NCBI RefSeq assembly: GCF_022045235.1
Contig: NW_027266270.1
Span: 27,156,001-27,220,000 of the forward strand
Length of the DNA stretch: 64,000 nucleotides
Origin: Haliotis cracherodii
Lineage: Eukaryota
Direction: 5' to 3'
Shown here piece by piece: positions 1,655 through 53,244 of the stretch. A model generated the notes under the pieces. It did not search any database. It was not told the DNA's origin and worked only from the letters and a program-made list of their open reading frames with translations. A program made the translations under genes and the position numbers. Position 1 is the first letter of the stretch. Every line of letters begins with the position of its first letter.

Positions 1655-2319
1655 ATTTCCTGTGCATAAAATGGACTATTGAGGGAGTCATCAATATTTA
1701 AATATGGGTAAATATTTTTCAAGTTTGTACAATTTATCATCATCCTTAAAGAGGCTGGACATAATGTTGATGTCTCATATAATAAATAAATGACTTGCGG
1801 TCATTGTTTATTGTACAATAAAAGACTGCAGTGTGTCATTGTACTATAAACAATTCCAACTTGTTTATTTCTAAAATATAGGGGTTTCCCAATGTGTTGC
1901 CATTTCTGTAGACATATATGTTTGCAAGTCATTTGGCACTGATTGATAATTTGGGCATTTCACTTGAACATTGTATTCATATGCAGATTCATTGATTATT
2001 AAATGATAGAGAGATTATCACCCTCATGTTATAACATGATAATCATCATAGTTCTGATATCGTTTGAAGGACAAGCCCTAGAAGAGTTCTTACACTGAAG
2101 TCAATAAGTAGATCTTTGGACAATATTGTACATTATAAATGCAAGAGTTTTGGGTCCAGGTGTAATTTATAAACGAGACAGACCTAATTTTGTAACGTTG
2201 ACCCACATTGTGGATTCTGGGACAGAATGGATCCCTAGACACTAATGTTTGTTGTACATGGTGCCTAAATTAATCAAGTGTCATTATACTCTGAATTCAT
2301 GAAAAAAGTATTACAATTA

Positions 2320-4091: not shown

Positions 4092-5466
4092 TTATATTTA
4101 ATCATATTTTTTTATTCATGTTTGTAACCAAACAATCACCATATTCCATTCTCATCCTATTCTCAGCTCTAGCAACCTACACTCAACCCATTCTTAGCTG
4201 TTACTCTGAAGTTACTGGTAAGAAACTTGAGTGTTCCTTTAGCCTCCCTTATTAATATTTTTATTTAACCTTATACATTACTGTATTTCAGGGACTAAAT
4301 GTTAGTCTATCAGTTTATCAACATGAAATGGTATTTGTCTTCAGTTCTGGCCAGTATATGGCATTACATGGCTTGTGGACAGACCGATCATGTCATCAGT
4401 TCTCATTGCTTGTAATTGTTTTGTTCAGACCAATCACTCATCAATAATAATATACAGCAAGCATTTTGTGTACAGAGTTTGCATGTACCTGCTGTTATGA
4501 TTTGATGGGTTTTTTCAAATCATTCCTTCAGGGGAAACTGGCTTGTTTGGTGCGCATCAATGACGGAAGTATTTATGCATATGACTGGTTCGACATTTAA
4601 GATACACATTTATTCTTATGAACTTTGCTTTCTAAAATAAAAACATTCTGATGTTGTCTGTTTTCGCACATATCCACAGCCCTATCCCTAGTTATTGTAT
4701 GTATAGACATAAAGTGATGATGTCACATGTACTGTTTTCAGAGAGGCTGTCGGGCAGTCTTTTCTTCAGTGTCAGTGATGTCAACAAATGAAGACAAACA
4801 TTCACTATCTATATTTCTACAGTATTCACTATGCTAAAAAAACTTGGGGAAGAGACAATCTCATAAAATTAAAATAAACGGTATTAAAAAAGTATAAGTT
4901 ACCCCTTCTGCTACACATATCCTATGATGTCAAAGACACATGCCTGATCAGTTTAATCGTAAAGAAAATTTAAGGAAAATATAGAGTTCTATTTGGCAGG
5001 GTCATTTATTTATTTTAATTTTTATATCGATTTACTTTTCTAAGTTTTAAGGCTCCTTATTTTTGTTACTGTCAATGTTGTTTTTAAGAATAACTTTTAT
5101 TATATGTGCAATCAAGGAAACACTTCTTATCGTATGTGGACATAAAGCCAATGTTTTTTGTGTGTGATTCTTGCCAAATGAAGTTATCACACTTTATATT
5201 TCTTTCATGCTTGCGCTGAGCTTACATTCCAGAGGGGAATAAGGTGTCCCAAAATGAAGTCATTTAAAAGCTGCTACAGTTGTGGCAAGAGATGATTCGT
5301 GGTACTAACAATACAATTATCATACATATATTGAAGCAATATATCCTTCAGGGTAAATATGACTTGAAAAGTTTGAAATTATGTGTTGATGGTGGTCATG
5401 CATGTGGGAAGTTGTGGAAGTTTGCTGCAGAGTTGCATCCCTTGGGCATTCCAGAAACGTATGATT

Positions 5467-9464: not shown

Positions 9465-9663
9465 GGGGCGGTCGGGTAGCCTGGTTGTTAAAGCGTTTGC
9501 TCGTCACGCTGTAGACCCGGGTTCGATTTCGCTCGTCAAGCCGAAGACCCGGGTTCGATTTCCTATTTTGGGTACAATGTGTGAAGCCCATTTCTGGTGT
9601 CCCCCGCCGTGATATTGCTGGAATATTACTAAAAGCGGCATAAAACCAAACTCACTCACTCAC
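9465..9663 (+). mobile_element. SINE family A with a 32-bp internal tandem duplication that includes the B box
   Basis: 12-bp TSD tattttgcaaag (9453-9464 and 9664-9675). The segment 9499-9530 is repeated at 9531-9562. Confidence 0.93.
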
Positions 9664-14773: not shown

Positions 14774-16529
14774 GGCGGACTTTATTCAGTATACATCAGG
14801 GATCCAGCCCCATTTTCATTATTAGTGTCAGTAATAAGACACGAATACAAACAAATTTATGATCTTTACAATGGAATAACAAAATGTACTAATTGATAAA
14901 TACTGATTTATAACATCTACAGTATCTCTGATTGTTTTTTCCTTTGAAAGAACCGAAGCATTTCTGTGTTCTGTTTTGAAGTTGGCATTCTCATTTTTCT
15001 CCACTGTCGGAGAGTGAACTGAATATTGCTCTCACTGTTATTTCTGTACACTCATATCTGCCGCACACTATCATTATAAATTAATATTCATTATCAGGAT
15101 GAACAATCCTTTGGATGGACTTATCGAGTTTATTAATTACTGATTTTTTTATTCCCATATCTCCACCATTCTCTGGTCATAAGGTGAATTTCAGATAGTT
15201 TTTTGGTTTCAAATTTCAGTAAAATGTATGTCTTATTATTTAATTTGGAAAATAAAACTGTGGAAAATAACTTATTTTAGTGTGGAAATTATCAGTTAAT
15301 TTACAGTGTGATTTGGACGAGAATATACTGTCTCAATAAGCAGTGAGGATGTGAACATCATCTGTCCTCAGATTGCAGGGGTTTGATTGAAGGACTTCAT
15401 GGACGGAGGGCTCAAATATAAATTTCCCTGGCTTTAGATTCTCAATAACATCTGTAAAAGTGAAAACATCTTTATCAACTTAAGTTGGTACTACTGTATT
15501 TAGTGCCCTGTTCCATGAAGTCTCCCTGACCAGCCTCTAGACCAATCCTAAGACCAGACATGAGTCTGTATTTTATTTGAATATTTTACAAATTTGTTTA
15601 AAAAGAATATCAGCTTAGGAGGGGTATGCAATTGCCCATTGACTATCATCAAAACAGGTTTAGTTTTATCAACATTTGAACAAAGTTCATTCACTACTGC
15701 TCAATCTCCGACAACAAAATTGAACTTGCTGTTTATGGTTTTAAAAAGCACCCCAATTTTCAAACACCCTGTGTGGTCACTACAGTGAATATGGTAATCG
15801 ATAACCTTCTTATTCTACAGGTTGCTTAGCACCTCTGGAACAGAATGATGACACATGCAGTGATGTCACCCAACAATGGATGATAAAACTGCCCTGTTTG
15901 TAGAATCCACTTGAAAACATATTACAGTGAAAGTTTTCTGACAAAATTTAGCTAAATTGAACAATTAATAGATTCAGATTTTAACATTTTTCACACTTTG
16001 CAATTGACAAAAAGGGGTATTTAGCAAAGTATACACATATCACTTGGACATGGTGAATAGTTCTAAAGATTTGCAGGCATCTTATTATGTCTATTCAGAC
16101 ATCATATTTTAACCTTCTAATTGCATGCAGCATTGAGTCACATTTGTTTAAAAATGTATTATATTCCTGAAAAAGATGTGCCCTGTTTTATACAAATGAA
16201 CAAATTGATATTCGATACTATATTTTTAAAGAGATGTCTTTTGTCATGTGTGTGATTTTAGTTCAGAACTGTAAATGTAATTATTCATTTGTTTCCTCAT
16301 GCCATGCCATGTGAATATAAAACTTATTTTGAAAGCAATACTATTGAAATATTGAATTCTGCGTCCTATGAATATTAACATCAATCACAAATCAATGGAA
16401 AATTAAAGAAAAAAGTTTTGATTTAATTAAACCAGCAGAACTTTGAACTGATATTATTCTATTTGGGGTCTACCTGAAACTGACAAACACTCACTTGTTA
16501 ACCTTGTCACATGTAGCACCTTAGACAGA

Positions 16530-18878
16530 CCCAAGTTACAGTAGGTCCAAGAACCATGTAACAGTAGGTCCCCAGCTCCATGCCCATGTTACAGTAGGTC
16601 CAAGAACCGTGTAACAGTAGGTCCTAGCTCCATGCCCTGGTTACAGTAGGTCCCCATCTCCATGCCCAAGTTACAGTAGGTCCAAGAACCATGTAACAGT
16701 AGGTCCTAGCACCATGCCCTTGTTACAATAGGTCCCCATCTCCATGCCCATGTTACAGTAGGTCCTAGCACCATGCCCTTGTTACAGTAGGTCCCCATCT
16801 CCATGCCCATGTTACAGTAGGTCCTAGCACCATGCCCATGTTACAGTAGATCCTAGCACCATGCCCATGTTACATTAGGTCCCCGGCTCCATGCCCATGT
16901 TACAATAGGTCCCCATCTCCATGCCCATGTCACAGTAGGTCCCCATCTCCATGCCCATTTTACAGTAGGTCCCCAGCTCCATGCCCATGTCACAGTAGGT
17001 CTCCATCTCCATGCCCATTTTACAGTAGGTCCCCAGCTCCATGCCCATGTTACAGTAGGTCCCCAGCTCCATGCCCATGTTATGGTAGGTCCCAGCTCCA
17101 TGCCCATGTTACAGTAGGTCCTAACACCATGCCCATGTTACAGTAGGTCCCCATCTCCATGCCCATGTTAAAGTAGGTTTTAACACCATGCCCTTGTTAT
17201 AGTAGGTCCCCATCTCCATGCCCATGTCACAGTAGGTCCTAGCACCATGCCCATGTTACAGTAGATCTTAGCACCATGCCCATGTTACAGTAGATCCTAG
17301 CACCATGCCCATATTACAGTAGGTCCCCATCTCCATGCCCATGTTACAGTAGATCCAAGAACCATGTAACAGTAGGTCCTAGCACCATGCCCATGTTACA
17401 ATAGGTCCCCATCTCCATGCCCATGTTACAATAGGTCCCCATCTCCATGCCCATGTTACAGTAGGTCCCCATCTCCATGCCCATGTCACAGTAGGTCCCC
17501 ATCTCCATGCCCATGTTACAATAGGTCCCGATCCCCATGCCCATGTTACGGTAGGTCCTAGCACCATGCTGATGTTACAGTAGGTCCCCATCCTCATGCC
17601 CATTTTACAGTAGGTCCTAGCACCATGCCCATGTCACAGTAGGTCCCCATCTTCATGCCCATGTTATAGTTGGTCCCCGGCTCCATGCCCATGTTGCAAT
17701 AGGTCTCCATGCCCATGTCACAGTAGGTTCCCATCTCCATGCCCATGTTACAGTAGGTCCCCAGTGCCATGCCCATGTTACAGTATGTCCTAGCACCATG
17801 CTGATGTTACAGTAGGTCCCCATCCTCATGCCCATTTTACAGTAGGTCCTAGCACCATGCCCATGTCACAGTAGGTCCCCATCTTCATGCCCATGTTATA
17901 GTTGGTCCCCGGCTCCATGCCCATGTTGCAATAGGTCTCCATGCCCATGTCACAGTAGGTTCCCATCTCCATGCCCATGTTACAGTAGGTCCCCAGTGCC
18001 ATGCCCATGTTACAGTATGTCCTAGCACTATGCCTTTGTTACAGTAGGTACCCATCTCCATGCCCATGTTACAGTAGGTCCTAGCACCATGCCCATGTAA
18101 CAGTAGGTCCCCGGCTCCATGCCCATGTTACAGTAGATCCTAGCACCATGCCCATGTAACAGTAGGTCCCCATCTCCATGCCCATGTTACAGTAGGTACT
18201 AGCACCATGCCCATGTTACGGTAGTTCCCCATCTCCATGCCCATGTTACAGTAGGTCCCCAGCTCCATGCCCATGTTACAGTAGGTCCCCATCTCCATGC
18301 CATGTCACAGTAGGTCACCATCTCCATGCCCATGTTACAGTAGGTCTCCAGTTCCATGCCCATGTAACAGTAGGTCCTAGGACCATGCCCATGTCACAGT
18401 AGGTCCCCAGCTCCATGCCATGTCACAGTAGGTCCCCATCTCCATGCCCATGTTACAGTAGGTCTCCAGTTCCATGCCCATGTAACAGTAGGTCCTAGCA
18501 CCATGCCCATGTTACAGTAGGTTCCCAGCTCCATGCCCATGTTACAGTAGGTCCTAGCACCATGCCCATGTTACAGTAGGTTCCCAGCTCCATGCCCATG
18601 GTACAGTAGGTCCTAGCACCATGCCCATGTAACAGTAGGTCCTAGCACCATGCCCATGTTACAGTAGGTTCCCAGCTCCATGCCCATGTTACAGTAGGTC
18701 CTAGCACCATGCCCATGTTACAGTAGGTTCCCAGCTCCATGCCCATGGTACAGTAGGTCCTAGCACCATGCCCATGTTACAGTAGGTCCTAGCACCATGC
18801 CCATGTTACAGTAGGTCTCCAGCTCCATGCCCATGTTACAGTAGGTCCTAGCACCATGCCCATGTTACAGTAGGTCTT
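16530..18878. repeat. 29/30-bp minisatellite, about 79 units, with a 232-bp higher-order duplication
   Basis: Units catgttacagtaggtccccatctccatgcc and catgttacagtaggtcctagcaccatgcc. Identical ORFs at 17594 and 17826 are offset by 232 bp. Confidence 0.97.
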
Positions 18879-18889
18879 GATTCACTTTG

Positions 18890-18990
18890 TGCCGTTGTAC
18901 CCTGTTGAATGTTGTTTATAATATCAACCACTGCTATTTACAGGCCGCCATGGAATACTGATGACCACACCATAAAACAAACAACAAACA
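18890..18990 (+). mobile_element. Diverged family B 3' body directly following the 30-bp array
   Basis: atatcaaccactg...tatttacaggccgcc...tggaatactgatga...taaaacaaacaacaaac parallels the family B 3' end. Confidence 0.65.
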
Positions 18991-19333
18991 TGTGGCATAT
19001 AGGCAATATATTACCCATGAAGATAGAATGTTTCTGATATTTTCACAAGTACAGTTAAGTAATTCTCTATTCTGATTGATGAATTGAAGTCTCAGTATTT
19101 TATTGTTGAAAAAATTTAATATGATTTGAACTTTGTTCAGGATGTCTCAAATTGATGTCATTTGAACAAAATGCTGCCTTCAGTGACGTTTATCTGTGGA
19201 GTTGACATTTCATACGGTTTTCCTCATTTTCCTTCTTGAAACATGAATGAGTAATATTTAGAATAACCTACTAAAAAGATCAGAATTACCCTATGTGAAT
19301 GAATGCTTGCCAAAGGCTCAGGACTTTATATTC

Positions 19334-19486
19334 GGGGCATTCGGGTAACCTAGTGGTTTAAGTGTTCGCTCATCATGCCGAAGACCCGGGTTCAATTCCC
19401 GACATGGGTACAATGTGTGAAGCCAATTTCTGGTGTCCCCTGCCATGATATAGCTGGAAAATTGCATAAAACCATACCCACTCACT
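19334..19486 (+). mobile_element. SINE family A
   Basis: Head, core and a shortened tail match the other copies. Confidence 0.9.
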
Positions 19487-19837
19487 ACACCATTTATTCA
19501 CTCAGGACAGATAAATTAAATTGGTAATGTGTAGTTCGTCATAGTTTTTCTGTAGATATCATTATACAGAGAAGTCGCTTGTTTTAACAAAGGTAATTCC
19601 CTCCCCAATGGGAAGCTCTGTGGCCTTGAGTATTCACAGATGCCTCATTCATCTCTGCTGTTTCAGTTCCAAGCCAGTCCATTTGAAAACAGGTTTCACG
19701 ATAATGAAACACAAGGCATCAGAGAGTACATTATTGTGTCTATAATCATCCAGGACATGTAGTGACCAGAGAATATAAAGGCCTGAACTAGCAAGGTTTC
19801 ACTCTGAAGCATGAGCAGTTCACGGAGTTGACCAACC

Positions 19838-20790
19838 GAATAGGTCCCCAGTTCCCCATGCTTGTCTCTCCTTGTTATTTCAGGACATATTAGGTCCCCA
19901 GTACCCCATGTTTGTCTCACCTTGTTATTTCAGGGCAGAATAGGTCCCCAGTTCCCCATTCTTGTCTCTCCTTGTTATTTCAGGGCAGAATAGGTCCCCA
20001 GTTCCCCATGCTTGTCTCTCCTTGTTATTTCAGGGCATAATAGGCCCCAAGTTCCCCATGCTTATCTCATCTGGTTATTTCAGGGCAGAATAGGCCTCCA
20101 GTTCCCCATTCTTGTCTCTCCTTGTTATTTCGGGGAAGAATAGGTCCCCAGTACCCCATGTTTGTCTCTCCTTGTTATTTGGGGCAGAATAGGTCCCCAG
20201 TTACCCATGCTTGTCTCTCCTTGTTATCATGGGCATAATAGGTCCCCATTTCCCCATGTTTGTCTCTCCTTGTTATTTGGGGCAGAATAGGTCCCCAGTT
20301 ACCCATGTTTGTCTCTCCTTGTTATTTGGGGCAGAATATGTACCCAGTTACCCATGTTTGTCTCTCCTTGTTATTTGGGGCATAATAGGTCCCCATTTCC
20401 CCATGTTTGTCTCTCCTTGTTATTTGGGGCAGAATAGGTCCCCAGTTACCCATGTTTGTCTCTCCTTGTTATTTGGGGCAGAATAGGTACCCAGTTACCC
20501 ATGTTTGTCTCTCCTTGTTATTTGGGGCAGAATAGGTCCCCAGTTACCCATGTTTGTCTCTCCTTGTTATTTGGGGCAGAATATGTACCCAGTTACCCAT
20601 GTTTGTCTCTCCTTGTTATTTGGGGCAGAATAGGTCCCCAGTTACCCATGTTTGTCTCTCCTTGTTATTTGGGGCAGAATAGGTCCCCAGTTACCCATGT
20701 TTGTCTCTCCTTGTTATTTGGGGCAGAATAGGTACCCAGTTACCCATGTTTGTCTCTCTTTGATATTCCAATCCAGAATACGTCCCCAGT
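19838..20790. repeat. 50/49-bp minisatellite, about 19 units
   Basis: Unit gaataggtccccagttccccatgcttgtctctccttgttatttcagggca, with 50-bp units first and 49-bp units after. Confidence 0.97.
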
Positions 20791-20793
20791 GAG

Positions 20794-20972
20794 AACATAG
20801 AGTGATGTCGGACCAAGTACTTTAGCTTCGCACAAATAACATAGTTTGATGTCGTACCAAGTACTTTAGCTACCCAGAAATAACATAGAGTATTGTTGGA
20901 CCAAGTACTTTAGCTACCCAGAAATAACATAGAGTATTGTTGGACCAAGTATTTTAGCTACCCAGAAATACC
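20794..20972. repeat. 44-bp minisatellite, 4 copies
   Basis: aacatag...ccaagtactttagc at 20794, 20838, 20882 and 20926. Confidence 0.93.
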
Positions 20973-21272
20973 ATGAAACAGCATACTGGGTATGTTAAGA
21001 AAGTGACTAACTAACATTTTTTATGTGAGGGATAATATGTGTTTTTTGGAAACACTCTTGCAGTCCATTTGTTTCATTTATGTGACTGTAACCCATTTGT
21101 TCTGAACAGCTTGCATGCAATCTGTCAATTGATTTAATCGATCTGGGCGAAAAATTGTGGATATTCTTTTAACTTTGGATATACAATTAACTTTGTTCTT
21201 TCTGTTTCTGTACCCTGGGAACAGATGTTTTCATTTCTCATATTCAAACCGGTTGGCCACATGTTAAACAAT

Positions 21273-21660
21273 CCTGGGATACTGGGATAGAATAGGTCTC
21301 CAGCAACCTATGCTGATCATACTAAGGGGATTCTGGGCTAGAATAGGTCCCCAGCAACCTATGCTACTCTGGGGATTCTGGGTTAGAATGGGTCCCAGGC
21401 AACCTATGCTGATTATACTATGGGGATTCTGGGCTAGAATAGGTCTCCAGCAACTTATGCTGATCATATTGTGGGGATTCTGGGCTAGAATAGGTCCCCA
21501 GCAACCTATGCTGATCATACTATGGGGATTCTGGGCTAGAATAGGTCCCCAGCAACCTATGCTACTCTGGGGATTCCAGGCTAGAATAGGTCCCCAGCAA
21601 CCTATGCTGATCATACTATGGGGATTCTGGGCTAGAATAGGTCCCCAGCAACCTATGCTT
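21273..21660. repeat. 51/45-bp minisatellite, 8 units, each a copy of the family B head
   Basis: Unit tggggattctgggctagaataggtccccagcaacctatgct plus a spacer, with spacings 51, 45, 51, 51, 51, 45, 51. Confidence 0.95.
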
Positions 21661-21894
21661 GAAATCAGGTGATGGTAACAAGATAGTGCCTGATCGACTT
21701 GTCTCGCTCGGCGAGTCATTAATTATCACCATAAAATTAACAAGACATGGTCATTTGGCCATCCAAGTGTTAACAGAAATAAATGTTCTCAAAGGTAAAA
21801 CTTAATTTTAGTGTTTTTGGATTGTTATTAGGCACGTAATGAGAAATACTTCTGAGGGTCTTGAAAACCCATAACACAAGGATACTATAAAGTA

Positions 21895-23914: not shown

Positions 23915-26372
23915 GGTGAATAGGTTATGGGTATAGGCTGCTGAAGCTGAGAAGGAGATGAGTATAGGCTGCTGGAGCTGAGAAGGGGATGAGTGTAGGC
24001 CACTAGTGTTGGGAAGGGGACGAGTGTCTACTGTAAGGGCTGAGAAGGAGATGAGTAGAGGCTGCTGGAGATGAGAAGGGGATGAGTGTAGGCTGCTGGA
24101 GCTGGGAAGGGGATGAATGTAGGCCACTATAGTGTTGCAAAGGGGTTGAGTGTAGGCTGCTAGAGCTGAGAAGGAGATGAGTGTAGACTACTATGGCTGA
24201 GAAGGGGATGAATGTAGGCTGATAGAGCTGTGAAGGGGGTGAGTGTAGACTGCTATGGCTGAGAAGGGGATGAGTGTAGGCCACTAGTGTTGAGAAGGGG
24301 ATGAGTATAGGCTGCTGTAGCTGGGAAGGGGATGAGTATAGGCTGCTAGAGCTGAGAAAGAGATGAGTATAGGCTGCTAGAGCTGAGAAGGAGATGAGTA
24401 TAGGCTGCTAGACCTGAGAAGGAGATGAGTATAGGCTGCTAGAGCTGAGAAGGAGATGAGTGTAGGCTGCTAGAGCTGAGAAGGGGATGAGTATAGGCTG
24501 CTAGAGCTGAAAAGGAGATGAGTGTAGGCTGCTAGAGCTGAGAAGGGGATGAGTATAGGCTGCTAGAGTTGAGAAGGAGATGAGTGTAGGCTGCTAGAGC
24601 TGAGAAGGGGATGAGTGTAGGCCACTAGTGTTGAGAAGGGGATGAGTGTAGGCTGCTAGAGCTGTGAAGGGGATGAGTGTAGACTGCTATGGCTGAGAAG
24701 GGGATGAGTGTAGGCCACTAGTGTTGAGAAGGGGATGAGTGTAGGCTGCTAGAGCTGTAAAGGGGATGAGTGTAGACTGCTATGGCTGAGAAGGGGATGA
24801 GTGTAGGCTGATAGAGCTGAGAAGGGGATGAGTGTAGGCCACTAGTGTTGAGAAGGGGATGAGTGTAGGCTGCTAGAGCTGTGAAGGGGATGAGTGTAGA
24901 CTGCTATGGCTGAGAAGGGGATGAGTGTAGGCCACTAGTGTTGAGAAGGGGATGAGTATAGGCTGCTGGAGCTGAGAAGGGGATTAGTATAGGCTGCTAG
25001 AGCTGTGAAGGAGATGAGTGTAGGCTGCTAGAGCTGAGAAGGGGGTGAGTGTAGGCTGCTAGAGCTGTGAAGGGAGTGAGTGTAGGCTGCTAGACCTGAG
25101 AAGCGGATGAGTATAGGCTGCTAGACCTGAGAAGGGGTTGAGTGTCGGCTGCTAGAGCTGAGAAGGGAATGAGAAGGGGATGAGTGTAGGCTGCTGGACC
25201 TGAGAAGGGGATGAGTGTAGGCTGCTAGAGCTGAGAAGGGAATGAGAAGGGGATGAGTGTAGGCTGCTGGACCTGAGAAGGGGATGAGTGTAGGCTGCTA
25301 GAGCTGTGAAGGAAATGAGAAGGGGATGAGTGTAGACTGCTGGACCTGAGAAGGGGGTGAATGTAGGATGCTAGAGCTGTGAAGGGAGTGAGTGTAGGCT
25401 GCTAGAGCTGAAAAGGGAATGAGAAGGGGATGAGTGTAGGCTGATAGAGCTGTGAAGGGGGTGAGTGTAGGCTGCTAGAGCTGTGAAGGGAGTGAGTGTA
25501 GGCTGCTAGAGCTGAGAAGGGAATGAGAAGGGGATGAGTGTAGGCTGCTAGAGCTGTGAAGGGGGTGAGTGTAGGCTGCTAGAGCTGTGAAGGGGACGAG
25601 TGTAGGCTGCTAGAGCTGTGAAGGGGACGAGTGTAGGCTGCTAGAGCTGAGAAGGGGATGAGTATAGGCTGCTAGAGCTGAGAAGGAGATGAGTATAGGC
25701 TGCTAGAGTTGAGAAGGAGATGAGTGTAGGCTGCTAGGGCTGTGAAGGGGACGAGTGTAGGTTGCTAGACCTGAGAAGAGGATGAGTATAGGCTGCTAGA
25801 GCTGTGAAGGGGACGAGTGTAGGCTGCTAGAGCTGAGAAGGGGATGAGTATAGGCTGCTAGAGTTGAGAAGGAGATGAGTGTAGGCTGCTAGGGCTGTGA
25901 AGGAGATGAGTGTAGGCTGCTAGAGCTGAGAAGGGGATGAGTATAGGCTGCTAGAGCTGTGAAGGGGACGAGTGTAGGCTGCTAGAGCTGAGAAGGGGAT
26001 GAGTATAGGCTGCTAGAGTTGAGAAGGAGATGAGTGTAGGCTGCTAGGGCTGTGAAGGAGATGAGTGTAGGCTGCTAGGGCTGTGAAGGAGATGAGTGTA
26101 GGCTGCTAGGGCTGTGAAGGGGACGAGTGTAGGTTGCTAGACCTGAGAAGAGGATGAGTATAGGCTGCTAGAGCTGTGAAAGGGACGAGTGTAGGCTGCT
26201 AGAGCTGAGAAGGGGATGAGTATAGGCTGCTAGAGTTGAGAAGGAGATGAGTGTAGGCTGCTAGGGCTGTGAAGGAGATGAGTGTAGGCTGCTAGAGCTG
26301 AGAAGGGGTGAGTGTAGGTTGCTAGACCTGAGAAGAGGATGAGTATAGGCTGCTAGAGCTGAGAAGGGGATG
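23915..26372. repeat. 31-bp purine-rich minisatellite, about 78 units
   Basis: Unit gagtgtaggctgctagagctgagaaggggat, with variant units recurring in multi-unit blocks. Confidence 0.97.
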
Positions 26373-37080: not shown

Positions 37081-38064
37081 CTGATAAGTACTCTCATTCC
37101 AGAGTATGGGTGTTAAATACTCAGAGACACAATAAACCTGCCAACATTGTACATCTGTTTTATAGTGGGGTTGCACAGGGTCAGGCAGGATACACGAGAG
37201 CTGATCTTCATCTGAATACAATCCATAACCATCAGACATTTTGTCCACCTGATCCACCTTTTTATCACTTTTATGATAAGCAGGGGATACCTGCTCTGTC
37301 TCTGAAGACAAATCTGTAACAGTTCTTGGAGGGATGTAAGCAGTTATGAAGAGTATTCTGTCAAATCTGTCAGTATAATGTACTGAGTTCTCAGTTATGT
37401 AGTCTACACAATATTGTCTAAGGAGTCTCGAAAGCCATTAAGATGGTTAGTTCTTGAAAAGAAATCAATATGGAGGGTTGTGTAGGGGCAGTGGTACAGA
37501 GCCTCATTAAACTGATGGAGTATCAAGAGGCAGTCGCATGTGTTTGTAAGAGCAACACCAGTCCGGCCTGCCACACTCCATCGTAAGCCTATAGGTGTTG
37601 TAGCCCTCCGAGACACATCCAGACACCTCCCACCATAATTACATCCACCCCAGCCATAGATGTCCTTGTAATTAAGAAAGGAGCCTCCAACTGCTACACC
37701 AGGGAGGGTAAGTCCCAGGTCAACGGAGGAGGGACAGCGGCATCGGACAGTGGAGGCAGCAGTGTTGTTTCAGTGCTGGTTTGAAGGAGAGAAGCTCCCC
37801 CTGCCAGCAGAGCACTTCACGTACATGGATACTGCCACAATTGATTGACCCTATCTCTGCTGACCTTCCTGTGGTTTCTGTTGGAGGTGTTGCGATTTAT
37901 TGAACATGTGAATGTTTTAAAAGGTGGTGTTGTGAGCCTATGCAAGAGACTTGGCATGTAAAGTGGAGTGTATTGTATCTAGGTAATGGTATAGACTCTT
38001 CGTCCTCTGACCTCACATCTTTGCACCATAGCCGTGGATTGGATTTGAAAGTTCAGGAATTAAG

Positions 38065-43029: not shown

Positions 43030-43299
43030 ATTGTTTGTTTTGTTTGTTTGTTGTTTGATGCTCCACTCAGCAATATTCCAGCTATATGATAGAGGTAGAT
43101 AATCGAGTCTGGACCAGACAATCCAGTGTTTGATAGCACGAACATTGATCCACGCAATTGGGATACGATGACATGCATCAACCAAGTCAGGGAACCTGAC
43201 CATCTAATCCCTTTAGTTGCCTCTTACTACAAGCATAGTTGCCTTTTAGGGCAAGCATGGATTGCTGAAGACCTATTTTACCGCGGATCTTCACGGCTC
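43030..43299 (-). mobile_element. Family B retroposon, full length
   Basis: Reverse complement of 52677-52941, including the head and the 22-bp internal duplication. Confidence 0.92.
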
Positions 43300-46446: not shown

Positions 46447-49144
46447 CCATTTCCTGGGGTAAATGAGATATTTCATGGCTTTAACATCAAACAACAAGTA
46501 ACAGCAAAACAAAACTAACATTATGTTTGGGACAAACAGTTAATTTGGTGTGGCCCACCATTGAAAGTGATGGTGTTTGCTATGAAAGAGTCAAATCCCC
46601 ACCACTGTGTTGTGTACCACACTCGCCCTGGGGACAGACAGCCACTTGACTCAGATTTTCACATGGGGAGTTGCTATGTGGAGTGCTGGGTTACAGAGGG
46701 GAAGATTCATTGCCAGAGCATCTATCCCAACACTAGCCCCTCCCCACCCCCTGGGGTTCCTGCTAGAAGTGGCCCCACAATCTCCTGCATGTCAAAAGAG
46801 GCTAAAGAAGTGTCAGAAGACTTTGGACTATTTGGAAATTATTATTTAATTCAGAGAACTAAATAAAACAGTTAAATATTTGTTGATAAATGTTGTACCT
46901 GTAAAAGACATCCTTGTCAGACTATCTAAGACCTGCTAATTACCGCGATACAAGCAGTTACCGGTCCAGTTTGTTTTATAATCTTCAACATGTTTTGTTC
47001 CGAGAAGAGTCTGGTGTATACTGTTGACCTATCTGACTTGCTATTGACTATGATATTATAATTGGCATGACATCAGATTTTCATTTGGGTACCAGTAAAT
47101 TATCTTTAGAAAAGAATTAAATGTATTTTTTGTTGTACAAAACACCCACATGGGACAGGGTACAAACATCCAAGAAGTGTTATAAAGTTTCCTCATTACA
47201 ATAGTGTATTATACAGTGGTATATACAAGACATAGATATGAGCTGCATACAGTTATAGTGTATATGAAATAGGACGGTTAGTTTGACGTAAGTTTAGTTT
47301 GACATAATAAATCTTAGCAACATTTTCCTTCCTTAAGACGACTTTTCATGTATAACTTTTACAAGTTCACTTGGACAATCTTTTGAGGGTTCATAATTAA
47401 TGTCAGTTTGTTTATGTGAATATTGTTTGTTAGAGATGCTGTGGGTCAGTTGGTGTGGAAGTAAGTTAATGTCAACTCATATGTAGGATGTTTACTAGCT
47501 GGGCAGTAACAAGTAGTTACCTCTGGCAGATAGTTTGTTATCTCTCCCAGATGTTTGCAATGGCCACAGACCCTGCTATGGTTTTGATTTGTTAATATTT
47601 AGAAATAACAGCTGTTTTCTGTTACAAATTGTAGATCTGAACAAGGGTGAATTAGGAAAATGGAGTGAAATTTTAAACAATTCCAACTGAATTTTGGTTT
47701 GGCTTCTGGCAACTGTTGCTTGATCTGTAAACCTCTTTCAGTTCCACGGTGTTCTTGTAGTTTATATAGAGTTGTCTCCCTTAGCAATGCAAGGATATAC
47801 TGATCATTGGTTCAGATCCATTTAGTGTCTCAGTCTGACAATACCATAGACTAACATTTAGTTTCTGTATTGAAAATAGTTTACAAAAATAATAGTTGTT
47901 AAATTGTCTTAATAAAATTGGTACCCCAATACCTGCCGTTAACATACATCCCCTCACTCATTGTTTGTTAGATGTAAGTTTTTCTATATGTCACTACTGT
48001 GGGCTACAGATCATCTAGACTTGCACAAGTCTCTAAGGCAATAATTATTCGTTTAAATCATAAGTTCTAGATTGTGTAAATAATAAGGACAAGTTGTCCA
48101 TGTAAGAGTCTGGAGTCCTTGCTGTCCTCATATCTAGACTTGCCTATTAGGAGGATAGAATTAAAACACATCCATAGACTTTTCTTTCAGTACAGCCTTG
48201 GAGCAAGGCTACAGAGCATCCTGTATGAAAAGTCAGCATATGTGCACTGTAGGATTTACACAACGCCTCTACATCTCCAATTGGCAACAAATCATGAAAT
48301 ATTTTTTAGATCTATGTGCCAATAGCTTCTTTGATCACTTTCCTCTAAATGTTTGTGTAACTTATTTCATCGTAAGTAAACTTTGTGTGATGATTCCAGA
48401 TCGAATGTGAAAATGTACGAGCTTTATAAAAACAAAATGTTGGTCCCCTGTTTATGAAGTTAGTCTTACAGTTTAACATTTTGTGTGCTCAAGTTTTTTT
48501 GTGTGGAGATGTAAGTTTGCAGTTGATGGAATAGAAAAAAATAGTTCTTTCAGAAGTCTTTTTTTTTAGGGTCAATGGATCCATAAACCAATGTTTTTAA
48601 CGTGTTCTGTATTGACTCAGTACGTCTTCATGGTTTGTTTTTGCACATGCCCTACAAAAAACATCAGGTTGCTAAGATTAATAGATTATAGCTCTGGAAC
48701 CACTCATAAACTCATGGACTTATCACAGCTTCATAGACTACTCCACAATCATAAACATTTATACCATTAATATAGCTCCTCAAACTAAACCAATAAATGA
48801 ATTTATAGCATGCATAAATAGCATGAGTTGTTGCACAGATTTACACATGTTTACTTTTGGGGGAGTGACCACTGTACCAACCTGTAGTTTACAGCCTGAG
48901 GGTCATGAAGGAATCACCAGTCTCACTAAGCCTTGTAAAGTTGATGACCCATATAGGTATTTAGGTTAAGCTGCTCTAAACTGAAACATGCATTAGGCTT
49001 GATTGTGGCCCTATTAGTTATGATGAAAGGACTGGGAGGAATTGTTTTCACAGTTTGATCCTTAATCCACCTTCCTCTGTCATCTGATGCATGTGTGGGA
49101 CGTGATGACCACCTCATGGTTGTACTGTAGGCCTCCGCACTAGG

Positions 49145-50444: not shown

Positions 50445-50880
50445 GGTGAGAGTGAATGTTGTGTTTTGCTGCAGTATTACAGCTAATGGACAGCAGCCTG
50501 TGACAACCTCTGGTTAACAAGTCAGTGGTTGACTGCCTGCAATGCTGCATACTGTCTGTAAAGACAAGGCACTATCAGCCAAGTCACACAGTGAAACCTG
50601 CAATCCTCATTAGTCTTACCACAAAGATTGTACTGGTGGCTTATAGCCCATGTTTTAAACATTTGTTACATTTGACCACTTTCTAAATGGCATTGTGTAT
50701 TCATGTACAAATGATATTGTTATGCCCAAATATCATGACTCACTTGTGAATATATCGACTTGGTCTCATCTCTCTATAGCTGAAATAATGCTGATGCCAT
50801 GTTAAATTTTAACTCACTCACTTACTCACCACAAAGATGGGTACTGGGGACCTGAACTGACCTTGAATCCCCATGGGGTT
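50445..50880 (-). mobile_element. Old family B copy (TGGGGA/TCCCCA variant head) interrupted by a family E insertion
   Basis: Diverged body at 50445-50628. The head at 50828-50880 reads ccccatggggattcaagg...aggtccccagtacccat on the minus strand. Confidence 0.6.
50629..50827 (+). mobile_element. Family E retroposon fragment with the shared 3' tail
   Basis: 11-bp TSD accacaaagat (50618-50628 and 50828-50838), and tail tatagctgaaataatgctga...aactcactcac. Confidence 0.75.
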
Positions 50881-52493: not shown

Positions 52494-52676
52494 GTCACCA
52501 CACGTCACCCATTCATGAGATGGACTGGGATCAGACTGACTGACCCAAGTAGAAAGTTGGAATCTACTAATTCAAATCTCAGAGTATGTAAATCTTGCAA
52601 CTGATTACCGCTAATGACATGGAAACAGTGTTTCAGTTTCACACACAAATTAATTTAAATGGTTACATCTTAACAT

Positions 52677-52941
52677 GACCCGTGAAGATTCCGGGGTAGA
52701 ATAGGTCTTCAGCAACCCATGCTTGCCGTGAAAGGCGACTATGCTTGTCGTAAAAGGCGACTATCGTTATCGGCTGGTCAGGCTCGCTGACTTGGTTGAT
52801 GCATGTCATCGATCCCAATTGCGTGGATCGATGCTCATGATATTAATCACTGGATTATCTGGTCCAGACTCGATTATTTACAGACCGCCGTCATATAGCT
52901 GGAATATTGCTGAGTGCGGCATTAAACAACAAACCAACCAA
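52677..52941 (+). mobile_element. Family B retroposon, best full-length copy, with a non-tRNA structured head
   Basis: Head gacccgtgaagattccggggtagaataggtcttcagc, a 22-bp duplication at 52719-52762, the shared 3' tail with (AACC)n, and ggttacatctt on both flanks. Confidence 0.92.
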
Positions 52942-53244
52942 CGGTTACATCTTCTCATGCACACTAATTAAACGGTTACATATTCACACACACTAATTAA
53001 ACAGCAATGTGCTGACTCAGGAAATGAGACCTGGCATCGCCCTTTGTAACAACATGACAATACCAAAGTTTGAAATTTACTACAAATAAGTCTTGAGAGG
53101 AAGTTCTCTCTTTGTGAGTTCTGAAATGTCATCAAATTGTCTTCTAAATAATATAAACTACTGAAAAGAAATGAAAGAACCCCCAGTTCATTCATATAAC
53201 TATAGTTAATTCGTCATGCACTGACAGATTACCTATAGTATTAT

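What the first reader, a model, noticed from the sequence alone, without database searches (positions are those of the whole stretch)
16530..21660. Three neighbouring minisatellites with different periods share one core derived from the family B head
Seen: the 29/30-bp, 50/49-bp and 51/45-bp arrays all carry TAGGTCCCCA...C(C/T)ATG in the same orientation. The 50-bp unit gggcagaataggtccccagttccccatgcttgtc aligns with the family B head gggtagaataggtcttcagcaacccatgcttg, and all three arrays use the TCCCCA variant. Inference: the structured head is a recurrent seed for tandem amplification, through replication or reverse-transcription slippage at the pseudoknot, or one array seeded the others locally.
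Basis: partly seen in the sequence, partly recalled or inferred. Interest (0 to 1): 0.75.

Follow-up and report, generated by a model that had tools for sequence, protein, structure and literature searches.

The report
Minisatellites grown from a retroposon head
Two of these three neighbouring tandem-repeat arrays, and very likely the third, are multiplied pieces of the front end of a common jumping element of a mollusc-type genome; that front end is predicted to be a tightly folded RNA, also found in virus sequences, that likely makes copying go back and start again there.

Summary
The observation largely holds. Arrays 2 (50/49 bp) and 3 (51/45 bp) are clearly homologous to the family B head (0 of 1000 shuffles against the 52677 copy). 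Array 1 (30/29 bp) is only marginal by its unit, but it is followed directly by a decayed family B body and tail, inside a probable target-site duplication. It is therefore one SINE copy whose head expanded about 80-fold. Only 27 of about 78 array-1 units carry TCCCCA.

Family B is probably the published 'LP-SINE' (LINE-derived head). In genome-wide contigs of four runs, all 4 short go-back joints among the 15 top joints lie in this same head segment. They are rare, and quirks of the reference copy attract them.

Covariation instead supports three hairpins and two other pseudoknots. This fold has no Rfam match and recurs in 7 viral contigs.

The biggest arrays have lost the fold, so structure may explain seeding but not expansion. 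SINE-derived satellites are known; the head hot spot and the shared RNA fold were not found in the papers searched.

The parts
16509..16527 (+). Probable left target-site duplication of the A1 element
   Evidence: 14 of 19 columns match 18988-19005; both copies abut the element ends; 316 of 20000 background windows score as well
16527..18876 (+). Array 1: about 78-80 units of 30/29 (23/24) bp; the expanded head of one old family B copy; higher-order repeats of 59, 147 and 232 bp
   Evidence: the unit maps to about 52691-52722 of the reference head (alternatively from 52679)
18877..18989 (+). Decayed family B body and CAAA-type tail directly after array 1, with internal deletions
   Evidence: nhmmer E 5.3e-6; 0 of 300 shuffles with each of two copies; 68-76% identity to five family B bodies
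18988..19005 (+). Probable right target-site duplication of the A1 element
19328..19505 (+). tRNA-head SINE (family A) between arrays 1 and 2; a bystander
   Evidence: Rfam tRNA match 19339-19410, 25.8 bits, below the gathering score; 12 or more like copies in the window
19838..20790 (+). Array 2: about 19 units, 50 bp then 49 bp; head fragment without an intact 5' stem arm; no family B body or TSD found
   Evidence: first six units 88% alike, last ten 96%
20794..20974 (+). 44-bp x4 array, unrelated to the head
21270..21661 (+). Array 3: 8 units of 51/45 bp; each keeps the first two hairpins of the head, with a compensatory GGGGA/TCCCC stem, and lacks the third hairpin
   Evidence: The 45-mer matches 52678-52723 in 37 of 46 columns; covariance-model hits of 9.6-33.1 bits with both stems paired in the five alignments shown
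52677..52942 (+). Full family B (LP-type SINE) copy used as reference; head 52677-about 52770 with a family-level 22-bp duplication
   Evidence: TSD 13 of 20000; 212,000-287,000 contigs per run lie on it
43034..43299 (-). Second full family B copy
   Evidence: 84.6% identity over 266 columns
46746..46813 (+). Dispersed relic head with a G-run/C-run first stem, no family B body
   Evidence: 17.8 bits, E 0.0013; body test 74 of 100 shuffles
50814..50878 (-). Dispersed relic head with the GGGGA/TCCCC stem, no family B body
   Evidence: Seen directly; model score weak (9.7 bits, E 0.4)

Best explanation
Arrays 2 and 3 are tandem multiplications of the first 45-60 bases of a LINE-derived SINE head, array 1 is very likely a third such case inside its own SINE copy, and the three likely arose from separate copies through a head duplication probably made during reverse transcription and later expanded by ordinary minisatellite turnover. 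Step 1 (shown): the units are head fragments running from about 52678-52691 to about 52722-52748 of the reference copy; the exact junctions are ambiguous. Step 2 (shown, with caveats): the same segment is duplicated in other genomic copies with different breakpoints. Step 3 (predicted from covariation): the head RNA folds into three hairpins with two pseudoknots. Step 4 (inferred): the LINE reverse transcriptase meets this fold at the end of its run, stalls at or near the 5' end, and resumes or jumps to about +45 to +57 of the same or another RNA, leaving a two-copy head. Step 5 (inferred from higher-order repeats and polarity): unequal exchange and slippage in a minisatellite-rich region take two copies to 8-80, whether or not the fold survives.
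For: Homology. A1 = array + body + tail inside a probable TSD. Separate origins: no flank homology; different junctions and retained parts; dispersed G-run/C-run heads exist at 46746 and 50878, so TCCCC needs no local source. Recurrence: 4 of the 15 listed joints (2198 in all) go back from 52725-52732 to 52690-52693, in all 4 runs (13-24 contigs for the top one). No listed short go-back lies in the body, although alignments also break there (52769, 52811). In table 5c, 6 of 9 short go-backs (12 rows shown of 800) lie in the head, and some linkers read like the element's own first bases. The tool reports no shared letters at these four joints. Fold. Expansion: exact 242-bp repeat at period 232 and 159-bp repeat at period 147 in A1, polarity in A2; 17.8% of the window is tandem arrays. 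R2 reverse transcriptase is described as template-jumping (PMC2718515, passages).
Against: Private variants of the reference at 52689 and 52726-52730 attract joint coordinates to exactly these places, and 3 of the 5 listed skips also start at 52725-52729. Only the top rows were shown, and the tool says some joints were not counted. Head duplications are rare (tens of contigs among more than 200,000), and related species can share loci. Table 5c also shows 3 short go-backs in the body. T-to-C changes at 52708/52709 are not among the 40 variants listed (21 more hidden), so TCCCC is a small minority among family B-like contigs, yet all three arrays show it. Three arrays within 5.1 of 64 kb is mild clustering (about 0.02 by my arithmetic, post hoc). 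A2 and A3 have no body or significant TSD. Nothing here distinguishes an RNA-level from a DNA-level first duplication directly.
Confidence: 0.6

Rival explanations
1. Same separate origins, but the first duplication is made at the DNA level, by replication slippage or repair at the head's hairpin or between its short direct repeats, with no role for reverse transcription.
For: The head holds short direct repeats (seen at 52678-52684 and 52716-52722). One global fit of the A3 51-mer and of A2 implies internal deletions typical of DNA rearrangement. Skips also start in this region. An A3 dimer folds well as DNA (z -2.55).
Against: The listed head joints show no shared letters and lie 3' of the direct repeat. 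The reference head as DNA folds no better than shuffles (38 of 200).
Confidence: 0.2
2. One local TCCCC-type seed gave all three arrays, by short-range duplication, gene conversion or break-up of an older array.
For: All lie on + within 5.1 kb. They share TCCCC, which is rare among family B-like contigs. A2 and A3 also share a C in the loop and align with each other at 0 of 1000 shuffles.
Against: No flank homology in 14 pairs. A1's TSD encloses only A1. A3 keeps the 5' stem arm that A1 and A2 lack, and A2 keeps 3' letters that A3's repeat lacks. Dispersed G-run/C-run heads occur 25-29 kb away.
Confidence: 0.13
3. New SINE copies insert preferentially into the head of older copies in the same orientation, and the resulting head-fragment-plus-head is the seed.
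For: It gives the same joint (about +50 back to the 5' end). Whole-element dimers are common: 5 of the 15 listed joints run from tail to head. Insertion into the same locus is mentioned for squamate SINE satellites (PMC10702118 Discussion).
Against: A1 has one body and one tail followed at once by the TSD, with no remainder of an outer copy. No tail-to-52710-52735 joint is among the 15 listed.
Confidence: 0.05
4. Array 1 is unrelated to the head and only happens to lie beside a SINE body; only arrays 2 and 3 are head-derived.
For: The commonest 30-mer variants are not significant on their own (655 and 81 of 1000; 111 and 189 of 2000). The covariance model finds nothing in A1.
Against: Whole-unit colinearity, the body and tail abutting in the right order and strand, and a TSD at both ends.
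Confidence: 0.05

Closest known systems
SINE-derived satellites (sSat1-3) of squamate reptiles, Vassetzky et al. 2023, PMC10702118 (abstract, passages and Discussion read)
   Same: Tandem arrays of a SINE portion with the rest of the SINE left at one end (as in A1); short loci with variable units; dimeric alternation of units; several independent origins.
   Different: Mollusc-type genome; the source is a LINE-derived, non-tRNA head; units are 29-51 bp; a breakpoint hot spot in a structured head is not described in the parts read.
LP-SINEs (Hdi_LP/Hmi_LP, Lsa_2, Sgl_LP, Oco/Oed_LP) and the Nimb-17_LMi / I-3_DR / RTE-9_CPB 5' domain, Matetovici et al. 2016, PMC4758252 (section 10, passages, supplement table row and part 1 of 5 of the supplement PDF read)
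   Same: About 70-nt non-tRNA head with the same landmarks as the scallop copies in Suppl. Fig. S2 (compared by eye); length about 265 against 255 bp for Hmi_LP; TSDs; short tandem tail; tail shared with a tRNA SINE.
   Different: The paper proposes a promoter and, in the parts read, gives no structure and no tandem arrays for the head. The Haliotis consensus (Fig. 3A) could not be seen.
T-shaped structure (TSS: H4a, H4b, H5, psi2, psi3) of turnip crinkle virus and umbraviruses, PMC9780821 (part 1 of 5 and passages) and PMC5336357 (passages)
   Same: Three hairpins and two pseudoknots in a viral 3' UTR; psi3 involves the first hairpin and upstream sequence.
   Different: No sequence match was shown. 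AGAAU and UAAGAGG do not occur in the main text of PMC9780821. A topological look-alike only.
5' ribozymes and end-defining RNAs of non-LTR retrotransposons (HDV-like in R2, PMC3774820, passages; L1Tc as cited in PMC4758252)
   Same: A short structured RNA conserved only at the 5' extremity of otherwise unrelated elements; direct duplications at 5' junctions.
   Different: The order of helices does not fit the HDV fold as I recall it, and no Rfam ribozyme family matches. R2 duplications are of target DNA, not of the element's own head.

Membership tests
SINE-derived satellite (sSat) | Repeat unit homologous to part of a SINE | tested here: met
   A2 and A3 0 of 1000 against the 52677 head; A1 marginal by unit
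SINE-derived satellite (sSat) | Terminal unit continues into the SINE up to its end | tested here: inconclusive
   Met for A1 (0 of 300) and at the 5' end for A3; not met 3' of A2 (102 and 41 of 300) or A3 (155 and 264 of 300)
SINE-derived satellite (sSat) | At least four middle monomers | tested here: met
   About 78, 19 and 8 units
SINE-derived satellite (sSat) | Subtelomeric or heterochromatic location; multi-locus families | not testable with these tools
   No assembly held
LP-SINE (family B) | About 70-nt head homologous to the Nimb-17_LMi 5' domain, no tRNA head | tested here: met
   By-eye match of landmarks to the scallop 'Nimb-17 homology' block; Rfam tRNA hits fall only in family A copies; not aligned by program to the published sequences
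LP-SINE (family B) | Target-site duplications and short tandem tail | tested here: met
   Copy 52677 TSD 13 of 20000; copy 43299 14 of 17 columns; CAAA/CAAC tails
LP-SINE (family B) | Hexamer AATATA or ACTAAA before the tail | tested here: inconclusive
   Copy 52677 shows AATATT and ATTAAA instead
LP-SINE (family B) | Identity to the Hdi_LP/Hmi_LP consensus | not testable with these tools
   Fig. 3A is not held; only the 255-bp length was found
TSS 3'CITE | Three hairpins plus two pseudoknots | tested here: met
   Covariation in 15 heads: 9, 3, 0 and 0 of 2000 permutations for four helices; the third hairpin is invariant partly by selection
TSS 3'CITE | Sequence or structural homology to TCV/PEMV2 TSS; 60S binding | not testable with these tools
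   No TSS model or sequence was available; not filed as a member
Known self-cleaving ribozyme classes (HDV-like, twister, hammerhead and others in Rfam 15) | Match to the family's covariance model | tested here: not met
   No such hit in the window at E up to 1 or in 20 of 125 loci at E up to 2

The most novel reading that the evidence does not exclude
The LP head is an undescribed double-pseudoknot RNA class shared by LINE/SINE 5' ends across animal groups and by virus 3' UTRs. It defines RNA ends (exonuclease block or self-cleavage) and makes reverse transcriptase restart about 50 nt in, so that one RNA fold acts as a genome-wide factory for 30-50-bp minisatellites.
Probability: 0.22. Interest if true: 0.82.

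Novelty: new variant of a known kind. Interest (0 to 1): 0.52.

Why it matters
It ties a class of minisatellites to one defined breakpoint zone in one retroposon module, which makes the first step of satellite birth (the initial duplication) testable by junction mapping.

The head was proposed to be a promoter. Here it covaries as a three-hairpin, two-pseudoknot RNA and also lies downstream of the last long ORF, near the contig end, in six small viral contigs. That argues for an RNA-level function and gives a 70-nt target for probing, cleavage and exonuclease assays. If the hot spot is an artefact, this is an ordinary case of SINE-derived satellites.

Tried and rejected
No whole genome is held, so no normalised genome-wide count was possible. 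Four look-ups in earlier findings returned nothing.

Segmental triplication was rejected. A family B body after A2 or A3 was not found, nor were bodies shared with eight other head-bearing spots (lowest 5 of 100 among 24 tests). A TSD for A2 was not found; the A3 candidate (21253 against 21755) is not significant (354 of 3000). The open frames over A3 (134 and 152 codons) are expected from units that are multiples of three and were not taken as coding. No host gene was looked for.

Pattern scans for the GGGGA/TCCCC or family B head found nothing in genome contigs or viral contigs, nor did blastn in phages. These collections hold little mollusc DNA, so the blanks say nothing.

In loci chosen by the intact 17-mer, an adjacent tandem head copy was seen in 1 of 120 metagenome loci (L024). 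The selection excludes arrays that lack the third hairpin, so this is not a test. The free descriptor search had no control and was replaced. No RNA holder was listed for the stretch searched.

Eight answered paper searches on the head and its arrays listed nothing that, by title and start of abstract, describes the fold or arrays from this head. Subscription papers and figure text are not covered. Parts 2-5 of the PMC4758252 supplement PDF were only term-searched.
Full report
Setting. The window is AT-rich animal DNA with two dispersed repeat families and many minisatellites; 14 listed arrays cover 17.8% of it. Family A has a tRNA-like head (four Rfam tRNA matches). Family B has full copies at 52677-52942 (+), 43299-43034 (-) and 38327-38072 (-), plus fragments, and shares its tail with family A. 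No assembly is held. That the host is an abalone-type mollusc is my inference from recall and from PMC4758252, not a tool result.

The observation. TAGGTCCCCA occurs 27, 13 and 5 times in them and nowhere else in the window, but 27 further A1 units carry a TCC(T/A)A variant. Against the two intact heads, dinucleotide shuffles reached the real score 0 of 1000 times for both A3 units, 0-7 times for A2, 15-20 times for the A1 29-mer and 81-655 times for the A1 30-mer tested. Eleven other arrays never went below 134, and the A units never went below 158 against the family B body or family A. So A2 and A3 are certain and A1 is marginal by unit alone.

Array 1 is a whole SINE copy. Bases 18877-18989, directly after the last A1 unit and on the same strand, are a decayed family B body and tail (E 5.3e-6; 0 of 300 shuffles with each of two copies; 68-76% identity to five bodies). 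A 19-column match (14 identical) between 16509-16527 and 18988-19005 abuts both ends like a target-site duplication (316 of 20000 background windows; a young control copy gives 13 of 20000). The whole A1 unit aligns colinearly to head positions 52691-52722 (22-23 of 32 columns, 0 of 25 shuffles). A2 and A3 have no detectable body and no significant TSD. The A3 45-mer equals the head from its 5' end to 52723 in 37 of 46 columns, and its units keep the first two stems, with GGGGA/TCCCC replacing GAAGA/TCTTC on both arms. Junctions are ambiguous: A2 fits 52678-52727 when the start is constrained or 52687-52748 with a deletion when it is free.

Separate or local origin. None of 14 flank pairs aligns better than shuffles (lowest 12 of 100). 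A1's TSD encloses A1 only, and the arrays keep different parts of the head. Relic heads with a G-run/C-run first stem lie dispersed at 46746 (+, E 0.0013) and 50878 (-, E 0.4), so such heads need not have come from a neighbour. Against this, T-to-C changes at 52708/52709 are not among the 40 variants listed for family B-like contigs (21 more hidden), and three arrays in 5.1 kb is mildly clustered (about 0.02, my arithmetic, post hoc). I put local seeding at 0.13.

Genome-wide evidence. Contigs of four runs (three organism codes, three studies) were laid on 52670-52945 at 80% likeness; 212,000-287,000 contigs per run fit. Of 15 listed joints (2198 in all), 4 go back inside the head (from 52725-52732 to 52690-52693, in every run, 13-24 contigs for the best), 6 go back from the tail, and 5 are skips. 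No short go-back in the body is listed. In the linker table (12 of 800 rows), 6 of 9 short go-backs are in the head (from 52725-52734 to 52679-52695) and 3 are in the body; several linkers read like the element's own first bases. This is the segment the three arrays use. There are real caveats. The reference has private variants at 52689 and 52726-52730 that pull coordinates to these places, though similar break points at 52769 and 52811 serve as a partial control. Three of the five skips start there too, some joints were not counted, the events are rare, and relatives may share loci.

What family B is. PMC4758252 (section 10, passages, supplement) describes 'LP-SINEs' in Haliotis, Littorina, oysters and scallops, whose first 70 nt or so match the 5' end of Nimb and RTE LINEs, and proposes a promoter. 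The scallop copies in its Suppl. Fig. S2 show the same landmarks as the family B head (by eye), and Hmi_LP is 255 bp. The Haliotis consensus itself was not visible, so the family name is probable, not proven.

The fold. An exact 17-mer from that supplement occurs in 120 fetched metagenome loci (about 3700 estimated) and in 5 viral contigs; a looser pattern gave 7 viral contigs. In 15 hand-picked diverse heads (11 metagenomic, 4 viral), four helices pair better than permuted partners. These are the 5' tetramer with the first loop (11 of 15; 9 of 2000 permutations), the first stem (8 of 15; 3), the second stem (10 of 15; 0), and the second loop with the segment after the third hairpin (10 of 15; 0). 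On a 13-row non-viral alignment, 83.7% of cells pair, against 71.8% in shuffles and 33-45% in slid controls, with 33 two-sided changes (0 of 500). Several rows are related, and the third hairpin is invariant partly because I selected on it. A model built from non-viral rows scores the viral copies at 40-67 bits. In six of seven viral contigs the third hairpin lies about 50-150 nt after the end of the last long ORF and within 120 nt of the contig end; one of those ORFs is a Peptidase A21 capsid (E 4.6e-19). Rfam has no matching family. The three-hairpin, two-pseudoknot plan resembles the TSS of carmo- and umbraviruses, as a look-alike only.

Mechanism. Shown: the units are head fragments, and the segment is re-duplicated elsewhere. 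Predicted: the fold. Inferred: reverse transcriptase, finishing a copy, stalls at the pseudoknotted 5' part and resumes near +45 to +57 of the same or another RNA, giving a two-copy head. Template jumping is described for the R2 enzyme (PMC2718515, passages); it was not tested for this family. Expansion looks like ordinary minisatellite turnover: a 59-bp dimer period, exact repeats of 242 bp at period 232 and 159 bp at period 147 in A1, and more uniform distal units in A2. It does not depend on the fold, since A1 and A2 fold worse as DNA than 199 and 198 of 200 shuffles while the smallest array, A3, folds best.

Verdict. SINE-derived satellites with a SINE remnant at one end are known from reptiles (PMC10702118). 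This is a variant from a non-tRNA head, with a probable breakpoint hot spot and an RNA fold that I did not find described in eight searches. Interest 0.52; the strongest reading has probability 0.22 and would deserve 0.82.

Noticed in passing
L001-L005, L126-L132 (7 viral contigs): The LP-head RNA fold occurs in viral contigs: in six, downstream of the last long ORF and near the contig end (one ORF is a Peptidase A21 capsid; L001 has two copies in tandem), and once between ORFs in a 212-kb contig (L128). Its stems covary and no Rfam family matches the four tested. It deserves its own study.
   Followed up: partly
L006-L125: Several different animal repeat families carry the same head, some with a long U-rich insert in the first loop, some lacking the 5' half; L024 has two whole heads in tandem.
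   Followed up: partly
window 52719-52764 and 43214-43258: Both intact family B copies carry a 22-bp duplication of the third hairpin; a copy at 2777 (-) has lost this whole part.
   Followed up: partly
window 9499-9562: A family A (tRNA-head) copy has a 32-bp two-copy duplication in its head; no array from family A was found in the window.
   Followed up: no
window 3806-63130: Eleven of the twelve long family A matches lie on +, whereas family B copies lie mostly on -; this may reflect a host transcription unit.
   Followed up: no
window 21662-21755: About 95 bases after array 3 contain an inverted repeat and may be another small mobile element; there is no second copy in the window.
   Followed up: no
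window 23927-26372 and 4151-4199: The 31-bp G-rich minisatellite matches a short stretch at 4151-4199 on the opposite strand (E 1.4e-6), so this array family is also dispersed.
   Followed up: no
window 52670-52945: Head-to-tail family B dimers are among the commonest joints genome-wide, and most listed variants are C-to-T or G-to-A, as expected from CpG decay.
   Followed up: no
window 2204-2276, 37253-37324, 46746-46813, 50814-50878: Further decayed heads without a family B body point to older head-bearing families with other stem sequences.
   Followed up: partly
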